From positions 5,955 to 69,954 of IMG/VR virus record IMGVR_UViG_3300032030_000067: a DNA stretch of 64,000 bases. One strand, given 5' to 3'. Shown here piece by piece: positions 13,344-45,645 of this stretch (its first letter is position 1; each line of letters opens with the position of its first letter). Made by a program: the position numbers and the translations under genes. The notes under the pieces are model-generated. The model worked only from the letters and a program-made list of their open reading frames with translations, had not been told where the DNA came from and did no database searches. The stretch comes from a virus (lineage: Duplodnaviria; Caudoviricetes).

Positions 13344-13365
13344 CAACAATTAAATACAGACAAAA

Positions 13366-23385: not shown

Positions 23386-24267
23386 TTATTGTTCGTTAAA
23401 AATATTTGTCATGATATTGTTTTTAATACACTCGTTTTTGATTTTTTCACATAATATCACCATATCAGGATGAGGTTTACCTGTCTTTCCAAATAATCTT
23501 AAATCAAAGAAATGTTTCCAATCTGATTCAAATCCAGTCATAATAAGTTCTGATTTGGTACATAAAGGTAATACTTCCCTTGCTTGCTGTGCAGTATAAC
23601 CTTGTTTAATAAGGTCTGTGTAGTAAAATTCTGCCCTACTGCATATTTCTAAAAAAGTGTCATCGCCATAATTGTTTGGTTCTCTATTTCTATCTACCCA
23701 TGCAGGTAATATAAAAGTTAACTCATTATCAAACTTATTTTTACTGTAATTACAGTATCTCGTTGACTCATTGGCAAATGAAAATACCCTATGTCTTAAT
23801 AATTCTCTTACTATACCTATGGAGGTAACTAATTTAAAGGCATACCTTCTTTCATGATAAAACGTTTTTAATAAATATTCATCCATGTCTTCTAAGCAAT
23901 GATGTTCAAAAAGTATTCTATAATTAGAAGTAACATAAACATTATGTCCATCATCCCCTGTCATCATTTTGGTTTGACGAACAATATGATTATATGGTTG
24001 TGATTCATATTTATAGCGAAATGCTAAAAATATATTTTTATCATTAGGAAACCATTTGTCTTTAAAGGTTAAATAAACAGTACCATGTTCAAGCATAGCA
24101 AGATGTCCAGATGAAATCATCTTGTCAACAAATTCCTTGGCAGAATTGTCTGTTATTTTATCTTCAGATTTGTAACAGATTCTTCCGGCTCTTTCTATTT
24201 GTTTATATATACCTTGTAAGCCATCTTCTTGCGATATAAATTCCGCACTACTCTCTATTAGTTTCAT
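23386..24267 (-). CDS. thyX: FAD-dependent thymidylate synthase
   Basis: RELLRHRVFSFANESTRY signature; GHLAMLEH; AREVLP; HPDM. Confidence 0.92.
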   Translation of the reverse strand: MKLIESSAEFISQEDGLQGIYKQIERAGRICYKSEDKITDNSAKEFVDKMISSGHLAMLEHGTVYLTFKDKWFPNDKNIFLAFRYKYESQPYNHIVRQTKMMTGDDGHNVYVTSNYRILFEHHCLEDMDEYLLKTFYHERRYAFKLVTSIGIVRELLRHRVFSFANESTRYCNYSKNKFDNELTFILPAWVDRNREPNNYGDDTFLEICSRAEFYYTDLIKQGYTAQQAREVLPLCTKSELIMTGFESDWKHFFDLRLFGKTGKPHPDMVILCEKIKNECIKNNIMTNIFNEQ

Positions 24268-25913: not shown

Positions 25914-25925
25914 AATGTCTTGTTT

Positions 25926-25954
25926 AAAAAGGGAGCCACAATCCTGTGACTCCC
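25926..25954 (-). terminator. Intrinsic terminator after the SSB-like gene
   Basis: Minus strand GGGAGTCACA-GGAT-TGTGGCTCCC-TTTTT. Confidence 0.75.
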
Positions 25955-25976
25955 CAAACAATTATGAAAAGAAGAA

Positions 25977-36662: not shown

Positions 36663-36911
36663 TTAATATTTCGCTATAGGCTTCATTGCCCAAGTCGCGT
36701 CCCATGCGGGCGCGTGGATTGAAACGTTACCTTCACTGTCAAACAGACCTGTGAACTGGCAGACGGTTTCAGGGTCAACACAATACACGTTGTAGCTGTG
36801 AGGCACCTCTTCTGGAAAGATAAGGCACTCGTCTGTAACGCATAACAAGTTCCCAATTAACCATTCGCTAGTATGTTCTCTTTTACCTTTGAATTTTATT
36901 GCCCGTTTCAT
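36663..36911 (-). pseudogene. YopX-family gene truncated by a CRISPR repeat
   Basis: IKFKGK...W..GNL...VDPETVCQFTGLFD is typical of YopX. The expected G.EI.EGDI continuation is replaced by VSIHAPAWDAT, the translated repeat. Confidence 0.7.
36694..36725 (+). CRISPR. Solitary type I-C-like CRISPR repeat
   Basis: 32 nt GTCGCGTCCCATGCGGGCGCGTGGATTGAAAC with a 7-bp hairpin and an ATTGAAAC 3' handle; no second copy seen nearby. Confidence 0.85.
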
Positions 36912-38969: not shown

Positions 38970-39234
38970 AGTTTTATAACCTTACCATTACTTAAAAATA
39001 TTTTCGCATAGAAATCACCTTTTTCGTTGATTCCCATCATATATCTTTTGTAATTCTTAACTTCGGCAAGTTTCTCAAATAATTGTCTTGATTTTTCTTG
39101 CCGTGCTTTCTCTCTTTGTATTTTAGTCATCTCTGTTCTCGATTATAGTATTCATAAAATTTATGCAGACTTCCAAAGCCTGTAAAAGCCTTGTGTCTGC
39201 ATTTGCCTTAATAGCATCCCGTAATTTCTGCAAT

Positions 39235-39399
39235 TCAAGAATTGCTTCTTTTATCCCCATAGTGTTGTTTGACTAAATAAATTAAATCCTTTAGTTCAGC
39301 CTCCATAAGATGATGTCTTATGCAAGTTGTTTTCCATGCCCGTTCAATGAGTTTGACGAGTTCTTTCCTTGACATGTTTTCTATTTTGGAATCTTTCAT
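39235..39399 (-). CDS. Hypothetical protein
   Basis: Start reset to MKDSKIE; the longer track ORF runs through a putative ncRNA. Confidence 0.5.
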   Translation of the reverse strand: MKDSKIENMSRKELVKLIERAWKTTCIRHHLMEAELKDLIYLVKQHYGDKRSNS

Positions 39400-39402
39400 A
39401 AA

Positions 39403-39519
39403 CAAAAAAGGAACGCCGGTGATAAACAAACAAACAATTAAATAACAAAAATATACACCCCTTATAAACGAAAAATATGAAATGAAGTAAATAAACACTA
39501 ACCTATACCCGGCGTTCCT
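39403..39519 (-). ncRNA. Putative small RNA with 11-bp terminal stem and U-rich loop
   Basis: AGGAACGCCGG (39409-39419) and CCGGCGTTCCT (39509-39519) form the stem; a U-tract follows on the minus strand; TATATTTG promoter at 39525-39532. Confidence 0.6.
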
Positions 39520-39533
39520 GTGTGCAAATATAG

Positions 39534-40721
39534 TTAAAATTTATAACTCTCGACCATATTTATTATTTTTTCGTGATAAGGTGTTGTTTTATTCATAAGT
39601 CCTCTTGACTGTAGGACTTTCTTATGCCTTAATCCGAGTTCTATAGTTTCAAGTCTTTCACCTTTCCCGTTTTTTGCGGACAATAATAATGAAGTTTTCA
39701 CATTGTAGTATTTCGCGGAATACACGCAATGGTGCATTGTCGTGCCTTCCTCAAGGACTTCATCTATTGTCATCAGCGGTCTGATGGTAATATCATCTGA
39801 TTTTATGACCACATTCGCATATTTCAGCATTCTTTGGTCATAGTCTCGATGTTTCTCCATCTCATTTTTCTCTTTGATTAATTCAAGCTTATAATTGAAC
39901 TTGTCATGGGATTTTCTCAGATCTGTATAACATACATATTTGGAATTTCTGATGTCATATCCGAGCTCCTCAGCCATTTTGATTGTGTCAAGCCATAATT
40001 GTCCATTTTCAATCTTATAGCCGTTCTTATGGGCTATAAATAGCTGTTTCGCGCGTGATGGAGGAAACATAAACTCACCGTATCTCATAAAAGGACTTGC
40101 ATAACCTATTTTAAGTGCGGTTTCAAACAGGTTGTTTTTCGGAAGAAGAATCATCTCCTGAATTATTGAACATCCGTTCATCATCCTTAATCCAAGTTGC
40201 TTGAACCTGTCTGTGATGTCACGCGACTTTTTGTAAGTTACATAACCTTCATGGTCATAGGTGAAAGAGTAATATGATTGTGCATAATTTCTCTTGACTG
40301 TGAACTCGGAGTCCACACAAAAATCATCAAAGGTCATAGGTCTTCTCCTTTTCCCTATAATAAGTCTGTGTCCATAACCGTCAAAGAAATTTCTGTAAAC
40401 CTCATACATACAATATGTTTCAGGAAATTTTGATTTTCTATGAACATGAATGTAGAAAGTTCTGACAACTTGTATGTCGCCATGCTTCTCAAAAACATTG
40501 TAGGCATACATCTTTTGATGTCTCCGTTCTTCTACAGTTTTCCCATGAATATGGCATTTGAACTTGTAATCAAGAAGAGAACCGCATTTAGAACAATAAT
40601 ATTTCCCACGATTCCTTAATCTCATAGGTTCTAAACCGTCATGTCCGTACTTCTCTTTGGAAGGACAAAGTGTCTTGAATTCTATTCCAAGACACTTTTC
40701 TTTAAATTCCTTGTTTGTCAT
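39534..40721 (-). CDS. PcfJ-like protein
   Basis: EEGTTMHHCVYS...RLETIEL...VLQSRGLMN. Confidence 0.85.
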   Translation of the reverse strand: MTNKEFKEKCLGIEFKTLCPSKEKYGHDGLEPMRLRNRGKYYCSKCGSLLDYKFKCHIHGKTVEERRHQKMYAYNVFEKHGDIQVVRTFYIHVHRKSKFPETYCMYEVYRNFFDGYGHRLIIGKRRRPMTFDDFCVDSEFTVKRNYAQSYYSFTYDHEGYVTYKKSRDITDRFKQLGLRMMNGCSIIQEMILLPKNNLFETALKIGYASPFMRYGEFMFPPSRAKQLFIAHKNGYKIENGQLWLDTIKMAEELGYDIRNSKYVCYTDLRKSHDKFNYKLELIKEKNEMEKHRDYDQRMLKYANVVIKSDDITIRPLMTIDEVLEEGTTMHHCVYSAKYYNVKTSLLLSAKNGKGERLETIELGLRHKKVLQSRGLMNKTTPYHEKIINMVESYKF

Positions 40722-40722
40722 A

Positions 40723-41181
40723 TTAGAATAAGTCTAACTGGTTCTGTTCCACCAATGGTTTGTCAGTTGTTGTATTATTTGCAACAGGTTTAGAAACAGG
40801 TTTGGAGGCAGGTTTCTTTCTCATGGAGTCCATCTGCTCTTTTACAAGACGTTCTATTGCTTCTTTTCTGGCTTCCTCACGTTCTTCTGTAGTTAATTCA
40901 ACTTTGTGGTTAACTACAATATTTAATCCGCTTAAATCCTCTATTTTACCTAAAGCTTCATTAGGCTCGTCATAATAGTGGACAGCCATAGAATATATTT
41001 CATCATCAGTGAAACCCTCACAACCGGATTTCTTCACTGTTGACAAAATATATTTACAGCATCCTTCAATTGATTTATCAGGATGTTTGTTTTCAATGAC
41101 ATCAATACGAGACTTTATATAAGCCTCAATTGTGTCTTGAAATGTTTTAGTGCATTTCCCTTCTTTATTTTGCTTTTCCAT
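40723..41181 (-). CDS. PcfK-like protein
   Basis: KSIEGCCKYI...GFTDDEIYSMAVHYYDE...QLDLF; adjacent to PcfJ. Confidence 0.85.
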   Translation of the reverse strand: MEKQNKEGKCTKTFQDTIEAYIKSRIDVIENKHPDKSIEGCCKYILSTVKKSGCEGFTDDEIYSMAVHYYDEPNEALGKIEDLSGLNIVVNHKVELTTEEREEARKEAIERLVKEQMDSMRKKPASKPVSKPVANNTTTDKPLVEQNQLDLF

Positions 41182-41509
41182 TTTTCAACTTTTTTTCAAT
41201 GTCATTAATTTCTTGTTTGAGCTGTTCTTTTTTATCTTTTAAATACTGAACGCGTAATGCATCTGCAATGGGAAGCATGATTTTATATTGTTCTAAGGCA
41301 AATTCTCTCAATTTGTCTTTGTCAATAAGATTGGCAAAGAAACTATTGCAAACAATATTGCCTTCTTTACCAAGACAAACCCTAGTATTGTTTTCAAAGT
41401 CTATATTCAGCCACTCCAGATTATTATCTTCTTTTTCAATCATTTTTACTTTTTGATTGAATAACTCTTTAAAGAGTTCTGTTGCCAATTTTTCAATTTT
41501 TTCATTCAT
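41165..41509 (-). CDS. Hypothetical protein
   Basis: 114-aa ORF. Confidence 0.6.
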   Translation of the reverse strand: MNEKIEKLATELFKELFNQKVKMIEKEDNNLEWLNIDFENNTRVCLGKEGNIVCNSFFANLIDKDKLREFALEQYKIMLPIADALRVQYLKDKKEQLKQEINDIEKKLKNGKAK

Positions 41510-42053
41510 GATTTAAGGTGTTAAATAAATTATCAAGAAAGGTGTTCATAAAACGATACGCTTTAGTCACATCAATAGTGAAATCCTCATTCAGACAGTT
41601 TACTTTGATATGACTTTCAAATTGAGTCATCCGCTCAAGGATGTTCTTAATCTTCACATTGTCCTTGGCGAACATTTTGTTCCATAAGCCATTGCCTGTT
41701 AGTAATAAATATCTCACTACCAGACCTTTGGCAGACAGGTCAATACAATCATAGGACAGCTTTGTAACCAGTTCTGAATAGAATGAATTATAGATTGAGT
41801 CCAATGACCATTCAATACTATCTGCATTATCTATGGCTATTTGGTTAATCTCACTGAATTCTTCTTTGCCTAATAACCTTGAAAAGCTTTTGTCAAAGTC
41901 ATTGAAGGCTTCAAACACTATAAGTTTTTCAGCCCTGTTTTTGCCTTTTACAAGGTCAAGGTTGGCAAATTCATTAAACTTGTCACGAGCAAGCCTTACA
42001 CATACCATAATGAGGTGCAAGGCTTGCTTTTTAGTAATTTGCATGACTAACAC
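41502..42053 (-). CDS. Hypothetical protein
   Basis: 183-aa ORF. Confidence 0.65.
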   Translation of the reverse strand: MLVMQITKKQALHLIMVCVRLARDKFNEFANLDLVKGKNRAEKLIVFEAFNDFDKSFSRLLGKEEFSEINQIAIDNADSIEWSLDSIYNSFYSELVTKLSYDCIDLSAKGLVVRYLLLTGNGLWNKMFAKDNVKIKNILERMTQFESHIKVNCLNEDFTIDVTKAYRFMNTFLDNLFNTLNHE

Positions 42054-42295
42054 AATACGGGTTGACCAAGGAATACATCCTTGACATCACTATAGATATA
42101 AATCTTACCGGTAGAAGAGATTTCAATGGGTCTTTTGCGCAAATTGCGCATTTCCTCCTTGATTTCTTCCTCAACTCTCCTTCTGCGGATTTCAAGAGCG
42201 CCTAAATGGTTTTCTTTGTCCATCTCCAAGACAGTTTTGTGGATTTGGGAAGATGATACTTCCATTTTCTTAACTTTGATTCTTTTTCTTTTCAT
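42047..42295 (-). CDS. Hypothetical basic protein
   Basis: 82-aa ORF with A-rich leader. Confidence 0.55.
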   Translation of the reverse strand: MKRKRIKVKKMEVSSSQIHKTVLEMDKENHLGALEIRRRRVEEEIKEEMRNLRKRPIEISSTGKIYIYSDVKDVFLGQPVLC

Positions 42296-42628
42296 AATTG
42301 TTTGTTTTAAAAGGTTAATAATGCTTTATAATCTATAGCAAGCTATATGTACGCCTGTTAGTTGTTCGAATAAATACATGATGTTGATAAACATAGGAAG
42401 ATTTTCCTCCTGAATATCTATTACTTCTATATTCTCTTTGTATTGTAACTGAAATTTCATTCCTTACTAATATTTAATTATATGAAATTGTGTTTCTGAA
42501 TAATCATTTATCTTTTCCAATAAAAGATTCATAGTCTTTCTAGATGGTCTTGAACCTTCCCATTTATAAGTAAATCTTTCATTTACTATTTCTCCGGAAC
42601 TTAACCAAGAATACCATTTATTGGCATT

Positions 42629-42814
42629 CTATCCAGCAAACATTATAACAGTTTTCTTTTTTTCATCTTTAGAAACAAATTTGATATTTAATCTATAACA
42701 ATCAGATTTAAATTCATCAATCCTATAATTTTCTAAAATAAAAAATAATGTTTTATCCAAAATCCTATCTATAGGATTCAAAAAACTTGTTAAAAACGAA
42801 ATTTTTCTTTTCAT
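42629..42814 (-). CDS. Hypothetical protein
   Basis: 61-aa AT-rich ORF downstream of the tRNA. Confidence 0.45.
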   Translation of the reverse strand: MKRKISFLTSFLNPIDRILDKTLFFILENYRIDEFKSDCYRLNIKFVSKDEKKKTVIMFAG

Positions 42815-42850
42815 AACTATTGATTTTAAATTAATTTAGGCTATATATAA

Positions 42851-42925
42851 TGGTACCCCTGGGTTGAATCAAACAACCATCTGAAGTGTAGGAAACTTCC
42901 GTTCTATTCGTTGAACTACAGGGGC
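42851..42925 (-). tRNA. tRNA-Arg(CCU) with encoded CCA
   Basis: Cloverleaf GCCCCTG-TA-GTTC-AACGAATA-GAAC-G-GAAGT-TTCCTAC-ACTTC-AGAT-GGTTG-TTTGATT-CAACC-CAGGGGT-A-CCA. Confidence 0.85.
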
Positions 42926-42929
42926 AAAA

Positions 42930-43036
42930 ATGTTGTTGTCATGATTTTACATGAATCTTCGGCATAACAACCTGCCAACCATTTGGCGTTCTTTAACGTT
43001 GTACTTTCCAATGTTTTATTTAAACTACAACAACAT
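42930..43036 (-). ncRNA. Putative structured RNA closed by a 10-bp terminal stem
   Basis: ATGTTGTTGT (42930-42939) and ACAACAACAT (43027-43036), between the tRNAs. Confidence 0.4.
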
Positions 43037-43038
43037 AA

Positions 43039-43103
43039 AGGAACGGCAAAAAACTCAATAACCCTTTTATGGCAAAATAAAGTAATATGACCTTGCCGTT
43101 CCT
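43039..43103 (-). ncRNA. Putative small RNA with 11-bp terminal stem and U-rich loop
   Basis: AGGAACGGCAA and TTGCCGTTCCT; shares the AGGAACG start with the 39.4-kb element. Confidence 0.55.
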
Positions 43104-43108
43104 AATAG

Positions 43109-43183
43109 TGGTTCCACTTGGGCTCGAACCAAGGACCTACTGATTATGAGTCAGTTGCTACTAACCAACTGAGCTATGGAACC
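43109..43183 (-). tRNA. tRNA with CAU anticodon (probably Ile2, possibly Met)
   Basis: GGTTCCATAGCTCAGTTGGTTAGTAGCAACTGA-CTCATAA-TCAGTAGGTCCTTGGTTCGAGCCCAAGTGGAACCA. Confidence 0.9.
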
Positions 43184-43186
43184 ATT

Positions 43187-43269
43187 TGGGGAGTCCGCCT
43201 CTCCCCATACCAAACAATTAACAATAAACCCTTTTTATGGAAAGAACGCCACCGGCGGATAATGGCGTT
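43187..43269 (-). ncRNA. Putative two-hairpin RNA with complementary loops, leading the tRNA operon
   Basis: Hairpins at 43187-43207 and 43245-43269; loop segments TCCGCC and GGCGGA are complementary. Confidence 0.5.
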
Positions 43270-43270
43270 G

Positions 43271-43278
43271 CAAAGATA
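43271..43278 (-). promoter_or_regulatory. Bacteroidota-type -7 promoter (TATCTTTG) for the ncRNA/tRNA cluster
   Basis: TAGTATCTTTGCAAC on the minus strand, immediately before the cluster. Confidence 0.7.
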
Positions 43279-43283
43279 CTAAA

Positions 43284-43490
43284 TTAATCATCATCATTAT
43301 CATGATACGGATTGTAATCTTCCGCATCAAAAATATCAGCAGCCCTAAGAACTTTATACCTTACATGATATATATTACAAATTCTTGGCTTATCAAATAT
43401 TCCCCATTCTACAGCACATTCCGCAATATCATCAAATGTTATCTTACAATCTTCTTTTTCCCATTCTATCTTGAATTCTTCTTTAGTCAT
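43284..43490 (-). CDS. Hypothetical acidic protein
   Basis: 68-aa ORF. Confidence 0.6.
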   Translation of the reverse strand: MTKEEFKIEWEKEDCKITFDDIAECAVEWGIFDKPRICNIYHVRYKVLRAADIFDAEDYNPYHDNDDD

Positions 43491-43959
43491 CTTGTCTCCT
43501 TTCCACCCACCATAAGAAATTGGTCACACTCGGCAACCATTTCTCATATATCGAATATTTTTGATTCAACGAATCCTTCATATCCTGTTCGGCACTTACA
43601 TAGGCAGCCCATTCACGATGGATTTCGTAAAATAGAGCAGAATCACAATCTACGATAATATATTCTCCATACCATTTGTCCATTTCACACCAATGTGCGA
43701 GATTATCGTAGTCATATCTGTCAGGATCATTGTATTCGATGAAATAACTTTCCGACAGCACCATATCTTCTATGCAATCAAAGTTAAATGAACTTTTCTT
43801 GTGACAATATACGACAGAATCAATACTGTCTGTTTCACGAACAGTCCTGTTATCTTGCGGTTTTCTTTCACATCCAAACGAGCAGAAAACCACGGAACCT
43901 AATGCCAATACGCCAATCGTAATGATTATGGCAATCCAAATTTTATCACTTTTCTTCAT
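43483..43959 (-). CDS. Membrane-anchored or lipoprotein-like protein
   Basis: MKK followed by a hydrophobic helix and Cys; acidic soluble domain. Confidence 0.65.
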   Translation of the reverse strand: MKKSDKIWIAIIITIGVLALGSVVFCSFGCERKPQDNRTVRETDSIDSVVYCHKKSSFNFDCIEDMVLSESYFIEYNDPDRYDYDNLAHWCEMDKWYGEYIIVDCDSALFYEIHREWAAYVSAEQDMKDSLNQKYSIYEKWLPSVTNFLWWVERRQDD

Positions 43960-44220
43960 TTTTTCATTTGTTTAAATCAATAATCACACTTAACTTATTT
44001 TTAGACATTCTCCCGCTATATATTTCTCGGAACAACTTACTACCCCACTTATTATTTATCTCCTCACAAACAAGCTAAAAATGGCCTTATTTGATGTATC
44101 CCGTAATCTCCTCTCCACTCAAGAAAGCAAATTCACGGAATTTTGCCCGAAATTTATTTTTTTTTTTTTTTTTTGGACGAAGGTCACAGAGGATTTTTCC
44201 TTTCTTTGCTTACGTTTATT

Positions 44221-44440
44221 ATTAGATAGTCTTATAATATGAACGTAGTGAATATTATTAGAGTATCTTATAATAAACTATGTTTCTTTTAATGGAAATA
44301 TGATATAAGTATATATACGAGATATTATGAACGTAGTGAATAATATAGAGTAAATATATACTTATACCTATTATCTATTATGAACGTAGTGAATAATAGT
44401 ATATAAATATAATTAATACATATACGCGTGCGCGCGCGCG
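44221..44440. repeat. Three TATGAACGTAGTGAATA hairpin repeats in an AT-rich region, plus an alternating purine-pyrimidine tract; origin- or promoter-like
   Basis: GAACGTAGTGA at 44241, 44329 and 44382, each centred in an inverted repeat; (RY)n tract at 44416-44440. Confidence 0.7.
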
Positions 44441-44760
44441 ATCTTAATATAGTATATATACTAAGGGGATTTTTGTGTATTTGCATTTCGGCAATTCCCC
44501 TTTTTGGTAAAAATGTGATGACCGCAGTGCTACACTTGAGATACTTTATCTCAAATAACTTACACTTCTAATTCTTCAGAATATAGAGTATAAATTATAA
44601 TCTTATATCGTACGCGTTGTATCACGCACCTAACGCACATTGCGTATTAAACTGTCCGAATGCAGACAGCATTTTCTGTTGGCACCACGGCCACCACATT
44701 TGTTTCTTATTCACAGAATTCCGTATAACATTCCCCACATTTATTTTTATTAGGGAAAAG

Positions 44761-44784
44761 GACCAGCGCTGTTACACGCTGGTC
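44761..44784 (-). terminator. Probable intrinsic terminator
   Basis: GACCAGCG-N8-CGCTGGTC, followed by CTTTT on the minus strand, downstream of the stop at 44795. Confidence 0.6.
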
Positions 44785-44794
44785 ACTTGTGGCA

Positions 44795-45526: not shown

Positions 45527-45645
45527 AATAATAGAATTTAAAGTTAATAAAATAAATTAAACGAACAGAACTTCCTCTGCTCTCTCTCGGTTATCCTGGA
45601 AATTTTCCATGCCCTAGTTCCCGTTTTGGGTAAAAGAAAAAACCA

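What the first reader, a model, noticed from the sequence alone, without database searches (positions are those of the whole stretch)
39403..43278. Family of closed-stem small RNAs with loops antisense to start-codon-like sequences, interleaved with tRNAs
Seen: non-coding elements sit on the early (minus) strand directly downstream of TAnnTTTG promoters (39525-39532 and 43271-43278). Elements 39409-39519 and 43039-43103 are each closed by a perfect 11-bp stem starting AGGAACG. Their loops are U-rich, and the complement reads like A-rich Bacteroidota translation starts: AACCCTTTT-ATG-GCAAAA, AAAGTAAT-ATG-ACC and CGAAAAAT-ATG-AAA. The element at 43187-43269 carries a near-identical AAACCCTTTTT-ATG-GAAAGA and shares CAAACAATTAA with the 39.4-kb element. 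Established: Bacteroidota mRNAs mostly lack Shine-Dalgarno sequences and use A-rich leaders. Inference: this could be a phage antisense sRNA system with a common scaffold and variable guides that silences host genes (for example defence genes) or phage late mRNAs, partly released by tRNA processing. One 12-nt loop segment (39433-39444) matches the leader of the 13366 gene (13345-13356), which may be chance in AT-rich DNA.
Basis: partly seen in the sequence, partly recalled or inferred. Interest (0 to 1): 0.85.

Follow-up and report, generated by a model that had tools for sequence, protein, structure and literature searches.

The report
End-clamped noncoding RNAs beside phage tRNAs
A sheep-gut crAss-like phage carries a few short gene-free stretches, around two tRNA genes and after one promoter, whose ends pair into tight stems; they are real and probably folded RNA pieces, but nothing shows that they are programmable antisense silencers.

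Summary
The sequence facts hold. Two elements, E2 (43039-43103) and E3 (39409-39519), are closed by perfect 11-bp AGGAACG stems. The stems exceed chance: 0 of 20000 shuffles tile the tRNA spacer with two closed domains, and 7 of 20000 give an 11-bp stem in the E3 spacer. Both promoter boxes belong to an exact 10-mer, TATMTTTGCA, found four times, always intergenic and co-oriented.

The antisense reading is not supported. CAU is not enriched in the loops. Complementarity to 87 phage start regions does not exceed shuffles. The 12-nt match is chance (254 of 300 random windows have one). No Rfam family matches, including ribozymes. No diverged relative was retrievable, so covariation is untested. 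The host was not identified.

Best reading (0.45): structured leader and spacer RNAs of a tRNA operon, released by tRNA processing, plus a promoter-proximal clamped leader or short RNA ending in a U-tract. This resembles T4 RNAC/RNAD and the unexplained non-coding RNAs of crAss-like phage phi14:2. This scan has already reported similar structured non-coding stretches in other crAss-like and tRNA-bearing phages. Interest is modest.

The parts
43269..43278 (-). Host-type (Bacteroidota -7 box) promoter TATCTTTGCA of the tRNA operon
   Evidence: Exact TATMTTTGCA occurs 4 times in the window (13336+, 28258-, 39523-, 43269-), all intergenic and co-oriented with the next gene. With up to 1 mismatch there are 33 matches against 19.4 expected, and 0 of 100 shuffles reach 33. 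Function is inferred, not shown.
43187..43269 (-). E1: leader of the tRNA operon. Hairpin A is 43269-43263 / 43251-43245 (AACGCCA/UGGCGUU). Hairpin B is 43207-43201 / 43193-43187. The loops UCCGCC (43259-43254) and GGCGGA (43199-43194) are complementary.
   Evidence: MFE is -25.7 kcal/mol with z -1.21 (24 of 200 shuffles fold as well). The alternative closed form using the UCCGCC/GGCGGA pairing gives -22.9 kcal/mol. A 6-nt loop-loop complement arises in 465 of 200000 random loop pairs.
43108..43183 (-). tRNA with CAU anticodon (Met, or Ile2 if modified)
   Evidence: ARAGORN; Rfam RF00005 at 63.1 bits.
43039..43103 (-). E2: 65-nt domain closed by the perfect 11-bp stem AGGAACGGCAA/UUGCCGUUCCU. 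It starts 5 nt after the tRNA 3' end. Its loop carries UUGCCAUAAAAGGGUUAUUG, which is shared with E1.
   Evidence: (z -3.78, 0 of 200). E1-E2 local alignment scores 26 against 13.6 +/- 2.5, reached by 1 of 500 shuffles.
42930..43036 (-). E2b: 107-nt domain closed by the perfect 10-bp stem AUGUUGUUGU/ACAACAACAU, with three inner hairpins. It ends 4 nt before tRNA-Arg.
   Evidence: (z -2.44, 3 of 200). Relaxed ARAGORN did not call it tRNA-like on the sense strand.
42851..42925 (-). tRNA-Arg(CCU)
   Evidence: ARAGORN; Rfam at 57.3 bits.
39523..39532 (-). Host-type promoter TATATTTGCA. It begins 1 nt after the stop codon of the PcfJ-like gene (39534-40721) and ends 3 nt before E3.
39409..39519 (-). 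E3: 111-nt element closed by the perfect 11-bp stem AGGAACGCCGG/CCGGCGUUCCU, with an 89-nt loop that is 57% U
   Evidence: z -2.90, 1 of 200; 7 of 20000.
39400..39408 (-). U-tract (UUUUUGUUU) directly after the E3 stem. The ATG of the next 54-aa ORF is at 39399-39397.
   Evidence: Other promoter-to-ATG leaders in this phage that I printed are much shorter, so this 120-nt leader stands out.
25914..25976 (-). Possible fourth relative: an intergenic spacer with CAUAAUUGUUUGG followed by a conventional hairpin and U5 terminator
   Evidence: It shares the enriched 10-mer TAATTGTTTG (5 matches against 0.73 expected, 0 of 100 shuffles reach 5). The relation to E1 was seen by eye only.

Best explanation
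The elements are structured non-coding parts of two transcription units read by the host RNA polymerase on the minus strand of a crAss-like phage.

Unit 1 is a tRNA operon: promoter, E1 leader, tRNA(CAU), E2, E2b, tRNA-Arg(CCU). Its leader and its 182-nt spacer fold into domains whose 5' and 3' ends are clamped by G+C-rich pairing. Cleavage by RNase P at the tRNA 5' ends and 3' trimming at the tRNA 3' ends would therefore free them as nuclease-protected by-product RNAs.

Unit 2 is a promoter followed at once by E3. This is a roughly 120-nt RNA clamped end to end and finished by a U-tract 9 nt before the next gene. It would act as a leaky terminator, insulator or attenuating leader, or as a short RNA in its own right.

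The elements are loosely paralogous modules. They share a GGAACG/AACGCC stem word, the CCAUAAAAGGGUU word and the UAAUUGUUUG word. They are not a scaffold carrying programmable guides.

What is shown: the sequence, the stems beyond chance, the promoter word, and the positions relative to the tRNAs. What is inferred: transcription, processing, stability, and any activity of the freed RNAs.
For: - All genes, both tRNAs and both promoter words in 19.9-46 kb lie on the minus strand.
- The stems are far beyond chance (0 of 20000 for the tiled spacer; 7 of 20000 for E3).
- The domains abut the tRNAs within 3-5 nt.
- E1 and E2 share a motif of about 30 nt in the same orientation (1 of 500 shuffles), which argues for a strand-specific role.
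- In runs X2, X4, X5 and X8, contigs of other abundant organisms that share the tRNAs leave the window at or near the tRNA ends (loose ends at 43176-43184 and, in X2 only, 42926/42927). The flanking elements are therefore phage-specific.
- A goat-gut strain (X5) has a 217-nt contig over E2+E2b with 0 substitutions and one added base in a loop-side U-run. Its seven other listed pieces differ at 155 of 2091 positions.
- Strain variants break the region at 43282 and 42828, just outside promoter-E1...tRNA-Arg, so this block travels as a unit.
- A 593-nt contig from an RNA library (X4) spans 39186-39778 without differences, which fits read-through across E3.
- Precedent: abundant early non-coding RNAs of unknown function in crAss-like phage phi14:2 (10.1101/2020.03.07.982082, passages). 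T4 RNAC and RNAD are still of unknown function (PMC9697503, passages).
Against: - No transcript ends, strand or abundance could be seen. All laid runs are contigs, and RNA libraries can hold DNA.
- Folding does not choose a strand. The plus strand gives z -3.86, -4.65, -1.75 and -3.48, against -2.90, -3.78, -1.21 and -2.44 for the minus strand.
- There is no covariation test. The only retrievable relative (L011) is identical across the elements.
- A sheep variant (X2) carries 25 substitutions in 42828-43146, so the block is not invariant, and I could not see which letters changed.
- E1 alone does not fold better than shuffles (24 of 200).
- The 43-89-nt loops are not what intrinsic terminators normally have, and the terminator scan did not list E2 or E3.
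- The record is only about 43% of a genome by CheckV's estimate.
Confidence: 0.45

Rival explanations
1. One reading: trans-acting antisense small RNAs whose U-rich loops pair with A-rich, Shine-Dalgarno-less start regions of host or phage mRNAs and block translation.
For: - The loop complements do resemble start regions in composition. In-register matches of 7 nt or more occur at 40 of 870 element-by-true-start pairs against 441 of 17330 for internal ATGs (p 0.0005).
- The 10-mer shared by E1 and E3 is complementary to the leader and start of the 82-aa gene at 42295 (13 nt for E3).
- The 10-mer is enriched in the window (5 matches against 0.73 expected).
Against: - CAU is not enriched in any loop (166, 88, 50 and 318 of 500 shuffles reach the observed count).
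- The longest complement to the 87 phage start regions is reached by 125, 193, 105 and 22 of 200 shuffles for E1, E2, E2b and E3.
- There is no excess at 9 nt or more (4 of 870 against 46 of 17330, p 0.22).
- The 12-nt match to the 13366 leader is chance level (254 of 300 random windows have such a match).
- There is no sign of variable guides on a constant scaffold. E2 and E3 share only the stem, and E1 lacks it.
- Host targets are untested.
Confidence: 0.1
2. PeSL-like regulatory cassettes. These would be repeated promoter-plus-stem modules in a hyperplastic block of orphan genes. Their main effects would be at the DNA level, as homology points for cassette shuffling, and in transcription punctuation, not through a free RNA.
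For: - The same promoter word plus an AACGCC-type stem occurs at two cassette borders.
- Strain variants have indels ending at 43282/43501 and 42320/42828, next to the module.
- PeSLs are described as small composite terminator/promoter sequences that mediate indels in T4-like phages (PMC4122927, abstract).
Against: - Only two or three copies are present, whereas PeSLs are many per genome.
- The observed junctions lie outside the stems, not in them.
- E2 and E2b have no promoter and sit between tRNAs.
Confidence: 0.15
3. Invertons or other DNA-level inverted-repeat elements: invertible promoter segments flipped by a host invertase, a MITE or Correia-like mobile palindrome, or a protein-binding palindrome.
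For: - The inverted repeats are perfect 11-bp words.
- The E3 interior holds a TAnnTTTG box (39446-39453).
- The arm CGTTCCT, with its T-rich flank, resembles the Bacteroides invertible-promoter repeats quoted as ARACGTTCGTN and GTTCGTTTAA (PMC8375218, passages).
- Both strands fold equally well.
Against: - The segments are 43 and 89 bp between repeats, far shorter than the 183-186 bp quoted for Bacteroides intestinalis.
- No strand-changing joint was reported in 4 of 4 laid runs, although these are contigs only.
- No resolvase or integrase family match occurs in the 69,954-bp record.
- The sequence shows no target-site duplication at either element.
- No further copies occur in 2.9 million viral contigs or in the JGI metagenomes beyond a near-clone.
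Confidence: 0.08
4. Decoy or sponge RNAs. The freed clamped RNAs would bind a host factor, such as a tRNA-directed defence nuclease or a single-strand RNA-binding translation factor, rather than mRNAs.
For: - They sit next to phage tRNAs.
- The same phage carries a solitary type I-C-like CRISPR repeat (36694-36725), which hints at RNA-based counter-defence.
- Earlier notes of this scan describe tRNA-framed non-coding arrays in other phages.
Against: - There is no tRNA-like fold by relaxed ARAGORN.
- There is no Rfam match.
- No partner is known, and nothing was testable here.
Confidence: 0.08
5. For E3 only: the loop is coding. A GTG at 39498 opens an 87-aa frame that adds a hydrophobic 33-residue N-terminus to the 54-aa ORF, and the stem is incidental.
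For: The frame 39235-39498 is open. T-rich codons give a membrane-like segment.
Against: - My own estimate is that an open frame of 33 codons in such T-rich sequence has a chance of roughly 0.1.
- There are no homologues of the 87-aa form.
- An 11-bp stem beyond chance (7 of 20000) and the shared stem word with E2 are not explained.
Confidence: 0.05

Closest known systems
Phage T4 RNAC and RNAD (species 1 and 2 stable RNAs)
   Same: Small phage RNAs of unknown function (PMC9697503, passages). From memory, they lie in the T4 tRNA gene cluster and are cut out of the same precursors by tRNA-processing enzymes.
   Different: No sequence or fold relation was tested. E2, E2b and E3 are not tRNA-like by ARAGORN. 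The host is a Bacteroidota member, not E. coli.
Early long non-coding RNAs of crAss-like Cellulophaga phage phi14:2 (g004-g005 and g005-g006 junctions)
   Same: They are abundant non-coding transcripts of a crAss-like phage whose function is unknown (10.1101/2020.03.07.982082, passages).
   Different: They are much longer (a gene-free stretch of about 1.7 kb), are not next to tRNAs, and show no shared closing-stem word. phi14:2 early transcripts had no common upstream motif, whereas E1 and E3 follow a host-type promoter word.
PeSL composite promoter/terminator cassettes of T4-like phages
   Same: They are short repeated promoter-plus-stem modules at the borders of variable orphan genes (PMC4122927, abstract; PMC2839356, search listing only).
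   Different: Only two or three copies are seen here. The stems close 43-89-nt loops rather than forming small hairpins. Recombination at them is not shown.
tRNA-punctuated non-coding RNA arrays and structured non-coding stretches of other phages noted earlier in this scan
   Same: They show the same layout idea: tRNAs interleaved with self-closed RNA domains, or hairpin-dense gene-free stretches in crAss-like phages.
   Different: Those are 0.6-2.4 kb arrays, whereas this is a 430-nt operon plus one 111-nt element. No sequence relation was found.
Bacteroides invertible promoters (Mpi-type invertons)
   Same: They are perfect short inverted repeats with a CGTTC core flanking a promoter-like box (PMC8375218, passages).
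   Different: The segments here are 2-4 times shorter. No second orientation and no invertase gene were seen.

Membership tests
Trans-acting antisense sRNA against translation start regions | Seed complementarity to start regions above chance | tested here: not met
   Tested on phage genes only (87 crude gene calls). The longest complement is reached by 125, 193, 105 and 22 of 200 shuffles. In-register matches of 9 nt or more occur at 4 of 870 true-start pairs against 46 of 17330 internal-ATG pairs, p 0.22. Host genes are not testable because the host is unknown.
Trans-acting antisense sRNA against translation start regions | Discrete small transcript with defined ends | not testable with these tools
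   Only contigs could be laid. One RNA-library contig runs through E3 into both flanks.
Any described RNA family, including self-cleaving ribozymes, 6S, Y RNA and riboswitches (Rfam 15) | Covariance-model match | tested here: not met
   Only the two tRNAs reach gathering score. With E up to 10 on 4.1 kb, 471 nt and 181 nt, there is nothing credible in the elements.
tRNA or tRNA-like | Cloverleaf detectable by ARAGORN | tested here: not met
   At a 70% threshold, with and without introns, there are no sense-strand calls for E2, E2b or E3, only overlapping junk on the opposite strand.
Intrinsic terminator | G+C-rich hairpin with a short loop followed by a U-tract | tested here: inconclusive
   The U-tract is present after E3 (U6) and E2b (U5), but the loops are 43-89 nt. 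The scan (loop of 3-8) lists none of the closing stems.
PeSL-type promoter/terminator cassette | Repeated promoter plus stem at indel borders of variable genes | tested here: inconclusive
   The promoter word and stem are present at two sites. Strain indels end at 43282 and 42828, near but not in them.
Inverton | Both orientations present in a population | tested here: inconclusive
   No strand-changing joints were seen in 4 of 4 runs, but contigs drop rare variants.
Inverton | Cognate invertase | tested here: not met
   PF00239 and PF00589 find 0 matches in the 69,954-bp record. The record is about 43% complete, and a host enzyme is not excluded.
MITE or Correia-like mobile palindrome | Target-site duplication and many dispersed copies | tested here: not met
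   The flanks are TATT/TTAT and ACAC/TTTT. There are two copies in the record. Pattern scans of viral contigs gave only coding or G+C-rich chance hits: 1 of 1, 7 of 7 and 5 of 5 loci.
T4 RNAC/RNAD-like tRNA-cluster stable RNAs | Encoded inside a phage tRNA operon | tested here: met
   E1, E2 and E2b lie within 3-5 nt of the tRNA ends. E3 does not.
T4 RNAC/RNAD-like tRNA-cluster stable RNAs | Accumulates as a stable processed RNA | not testable with these tools
   This needs Northern blots or end-mapping.

The most novel reading that the evidence does not exclude
A crAss-like phage makes a small family of panhandle RNAs, with 5' and 3' ends clamped by a GGAACG-type stem. They would be produced from host-type promoters and by the tRNA-processing machinery. 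Their exposed U-rich loops would act in trans, either as antisense blockers of Shine-Dalgarno-less A-rich start regions or as sponges for a host factor that reads such leaders. This would be a phage route to translational takeover in Bacteroidota.
Probability: 0.1. Interest if true: 0.75.

Novelty: new variant of a known kind. Interest (0 to 1): 0.3.

Why it matters
RNA biology of crAss-like phages, among the most abundant gut viruses, is almost unexplored. Their known non-coding RNAs have no assigned function.

If these short clamped RNAs are stable and active, they would be a small, tractable entry point of 65-111 nt with clear mutational tests on the stems. They could address how such phages control their own early genes or their host's translation.

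As it stands, the finding documents a real but lineage-restricted set of structured spacers. Its proposed function is untested.

Tried and rejected
**Relatives**
- DNA search of GenBank phages with 6 kb around the locus found only tRNA-level or short hits.
- A protein-anchored search with the PcfJ-like gene gave 0 relatives among 16 candidate stretches.
- A terminase-anchored search gave 3 loci at 55-57% identity, with no tRNAs and a different upstream layout.
- An alignment-anchored search gave 80 loci of 26-34% PcfJ relatives, 0 of 80 with a GGAACG-closed stem.
- Pattern scans of viral contigs for E2-type and E3-type stems gave only chance hits. L004 lies in a G+C-rich coding region. L005, L006 and L008-L010 come from loci of 50-57% G+C. 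L007 lies inside a 224-aa ORF. L093 and L094 are G+C-rich. L095-L097 are one conserved stretch, which in L095 lies inside a 124-aa ORF.
- The single metagenome scan returned only a near-clone, L011, which shows 3 substitutions between 39917 and 43893, none in the elements.
- The earlier-findings index held no look-alike.

**Host**
- An exact search of GTDB species genomes with the phage's I-C-like repeat gave 0 hits.
- The same search with the 3' 37 nt of tRNA-Arg gave 0 hits.
- The host therefore stays unknown, and host-target tests were not possible.

**Other negative tests**
- RNAduplex energies of whole elements against start regions were less favourable than against internal windows (means -14.8/-19.2, -13.0/-15.4, -12.2/-17.1 and -16.5/-17.2). 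I do not rely on this test because it ignores accessibility.
- Ribozyme, tRNA-like and tmRNA readings were rejected.
- The phi14:2 non-coding regions were inspected and showed no similar closing stems or Rfam hits.
- The 87-aa GTG-start ORF over E3 has no homologues.

**Limits of the run data**
- RNA runs X4 and X8 showed no listed identical contig over 42305-43338. This is uninformative, because tRNA contigs of other organisms swamp that stretch and 248 pieces were not shown.

**Literature**
- Searches found no paper describing small RNAs of this kind in crAss-like phages. This covers the held library only.
- Supplementary files were not opened. Supplementary tables of the phi14:2 preprint may hold transcript coordinates that bear on the comparison.

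Full report
**What the DNA is.** The window is 64 kb of a single 69,954-bp virus record. CheckV rates the record about 43% complete and linear. Terminase, portal and major head protein match crAss-type PHROGs. The head protein is 34% identical to those of Flavobacterium crAss-like phages. Near-identical DNA is held by sheep-gut runs, and parts of it by goat and bovine gut runs. Genes from about 19.9 to 46 kb are on the minus strand.

**Checking the observation.** Reading the minus strand together with ARAGORN gives this order:
- TATCTTTG (43278-43271)
- E1 (43269-43187)
- tRNA(CAU) (43183-43108)
- 5 nt
- E2 (43103-43039)
- 2 nt
- 4 nt
- tRNA-Arg(CCU) (42925-42851)

E3 (39519-39409) lies in the 134-nt spacer between a PcfJ-like gene (39534-40721; PF14284 on its relatives) and a 54-aa ORF that starts at 39399. 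The 11-bp stems, the quoted loop words, the shared TTAATTGTTTG and the 12-nt identity with 13345-13356 are all present.

**Is it more than chance?**
- A perfect 10-bp inverted repeat with a 20-200-nt loop is common in this AT-rich window (50 seed hits), so a stem alone proves little.
- AGGAACGSC occurs only at the four arms (4 against 0.26 expected).
- An 11-bp stem in the shuffled E3 spacer arises in 7 of 20000 trials.
- A shuffled tRNA spacer has at least one 10-bp stem in 347 of 20000 trials, two side by side in 1, and two that tile 90% of it in 0.
- Minus-strand folds have z -2.90 (E3), -3.78 (E2), -2.44 (E2b) and -1.21 (E1).
- The plus strand folds just as well (z -3.86, -4.65, -3.48, -1.75), so thermodynamics cannot name the strand.
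- TAnnTTTG is not enriched as such (87 against 78.8). Both boxes, however, belong to the exact word TATMTTTGCA. It occurs four times (13336+, 28258-, 39523-, 43269-), each time intergenic and pointing at the next gene. I accept them as likely host-RNA-polymerase promoters.

**Is it a family?** Partly.
- E2 and E3 share the outer 7 bp of the stem. The inner 4 bp differ, and the three changed pairs stay complementary (sequence).
- E1 lacks that stem but starts with AACGCCA...UGGCGUU, a short version of the same word.
- The two hairpin loops of E1 are complementary over 6 nt (465 of 200000 random loop pairs). The resulting closed form costs only 2.8 kcal/mol more than the MFE.
- E1 and E2 share a motif of about 30 nt in the same orientation (1 of 500 shuffles).
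- E1 and E3 share a 17-nt stretch (15 of 500).
- The E2 and E3 loops, and E2b with anything, are not alike (220 to 388 of 500).
- The 10-mer TAATTGTTTG is enriched (5 against 0.73 expected). Three copies lie on the minus strand just upstream of a 3' G+C-rich arm or terminator, in E1, E3 and the 25.9-kb spacer. Two copies are in the complementary sense inside CAAACAATTATG, at the start of the 82-aa gene at 42295 and inside the gene at 23669.

**Testing the antisense reading.**
- Only the E2 and E3 loops are U-rich (47% and 57% U). The E2b loop is 39% A.
- CAU counts are ordinary for the dinucleotide content (166, 88, 50 and 318 of 500 shuffles reach them).
- Against 87 crude phage gene starts (-30..+15), the longest perfect complements are 10, 9, 10 and 13 nt. 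They are reached by 125, 193, 105 and 22 of 200 shuffles.
- I also anchored each anti-ATG on real start codons and, as a control, on internal ATGs:

| Match length | True starts | Internal ATGs | p |
|---|---|---|---|
| 7 nt or more | 40 of 870 | 441 of 17330 | 0.0005 |
| 8 nt or more | 13 of 870 | 133 of 17330 | 0.023 |
| 9 nt or more | 4 of 870 | 46 of 17330 | 0.22 |

- So the complements look like start regions in composition, as any U-rich RNA with CAU would. No specific phage target stands out.
- Host targets could not be examined, because both exact searches of species genomes for host links gave 0 hits.

**Known families.**
- Rfam finds only the tRNAs at gathering score.
- It finds nothing credible in the elements at E up to 10, even on 471-nt and 181-nt slices. 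No ribozyme is seen here.
- Relaxed ARAGORN gives no sense-strand tRNA-like or tmRNA call.

**Relatives and conservation.**
- No diverged relative could be fetched.
A 70% PcfJ relative on a 10-kb contig (P0002) therefore stayed out of reach.
- The one metagenome hit (L011) is a near-clone.
- In goat run X5, a 217-nt contig over E2+E2b has no substitution and one extra base in a U-run beside the stem. The seven other listed X5 pieces differ at 155 of 2091 positions.
- In sheep run X2, a variant contig over 42828-43146 has 25 substitutions and no indel, but the letters were not shown.
- X5 joins 43282 to 43501, so the 68-aa gene is absent. The X2 variant joins 42320 to 42828. The promoter-to-tRNA-Arg block therefore behaves as a unit between variable orphan genes.
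- High-depth contigs of other organisms share the tRNAs and depart at or near the tRNA ends, so E1, E2 and E2b are not part of those loci.
- The DNA contig of X2 (39008-40404) and an RNA-library contig of X4 (39186-39778) both cross E3 unchanged. The latter fits read-through transcription but may be DNA.

**Most likely mechanism (0.45).**
- The host polymerase starts at the two TATMTTTGCA promoters.
- In the tRNA operon, the leader and the spacer fold into end-clamped domains. RNase P and 3' trimming of the tRNAs leave them as protected fragments. This is inferred from their position 3-5 nt from the tRNA ends.
- The closest analogues are T4 RNAC and RNAD. Their unknown function is stated in PMC9697503. 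Their location in the tRNA cluster is from my memory.
- E3 gives a 120-nt leader where the other leaders I printed are far shorter. Its first and last 11 nt pair, and U6 follows. It should therefore stop part of the transcripts, or hinder ribosome access to the ATG 9 nt downstream. An internal weaker TAnnTTTG box (39453-39446) would yield transcripts that lack the 5' arm and read on.
- What the freed RNAs do, if anything, is open.

**Rivals.** These are set out with odds in the Rival explanations section:
- the antisense model (0.10)
- PeSL-like shuffling cassettes (0.15; PMC4122927 abstract)
- invertons or other DNA-level palindromes (0.08)
- decoys (0.08)
- a coding reading of the E3 loop (0.05)

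For the inverton reading, the arm resembles the Bacteroides invertible-promoter repeats quoted in PMC8375218. Against it, the segments are 43 and 89 bp, no second orientation was seen, and no recombinase is present in the record.

**Novelty and verdict.**
- Abundant unexplained non-coding RNAs are already reported for a crAss-like phage (10.1101/2020.03.07.982082, passages).
- This scan has several earlier reports of structured non-coding stretches in crAss-like phages and of tRNA-framed RNA arrays.
- The present elements are a small, lineage-restricted variant of that theme.
- Interest 0.3.

Noticed in passing
An exact search of GTDB species genomes found 0 copies.
   Followed up: partly
window 23669, 25955, 39431, 42295, 43211: The 10-mer TAATTGTTTG is enriched (5 matches against 0.73 expected). 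Three copies lie just upstream of 3' G+C-rich arms or terminators on the transcribed strand. Two lie in the complementary sense within CAAACAATTATG.
   Followed up: partly
window 42320/42828 and 43282/43501: Strain variants in sheep (X2) and goat (X5) runs lack 507 nt (small ORFs below tRNA-Arg) and 218 nt (the 68-aa gene). The orphan genes around the tRNA block are therefore cassettes that come and go.
   Followed up: no
window 42851-42925: Contigs at depths of tens to over a thousand in all four laid runs match this tRNA-Arg stretch and differ from the phage copy at 42888 and 42908, which correspond to position 38 and the D-loop. The exact 3' 37 nt has 0 hits in GTDB species genomes.
   Followed up: partly
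window 13336, 28258, 39523, 43269 (exact); 46323, 53138, 59692 (one mismatch): The extended promoter word TATMTTTGCA, or near-copies of it, stands before genes of both the replication or orphan block and the structural block. This suggests wide use of the host polymerase.
   Followed up: partly
window 43960-44794 and 45527-45645: Several hundred bases are without ORFs. They include an A18 run near 44150 that is 4 bases shorter in the near-clone L011, and that clone diverges sharply from 43894 onward.
   Followed up: no
window 39235-39498 (-): The E3 loop is in frame with the downstream 54-aa ORF from a GTG. This gives a hydrophobic 33-residue extension. No homologues were found.
   Followed up: partly
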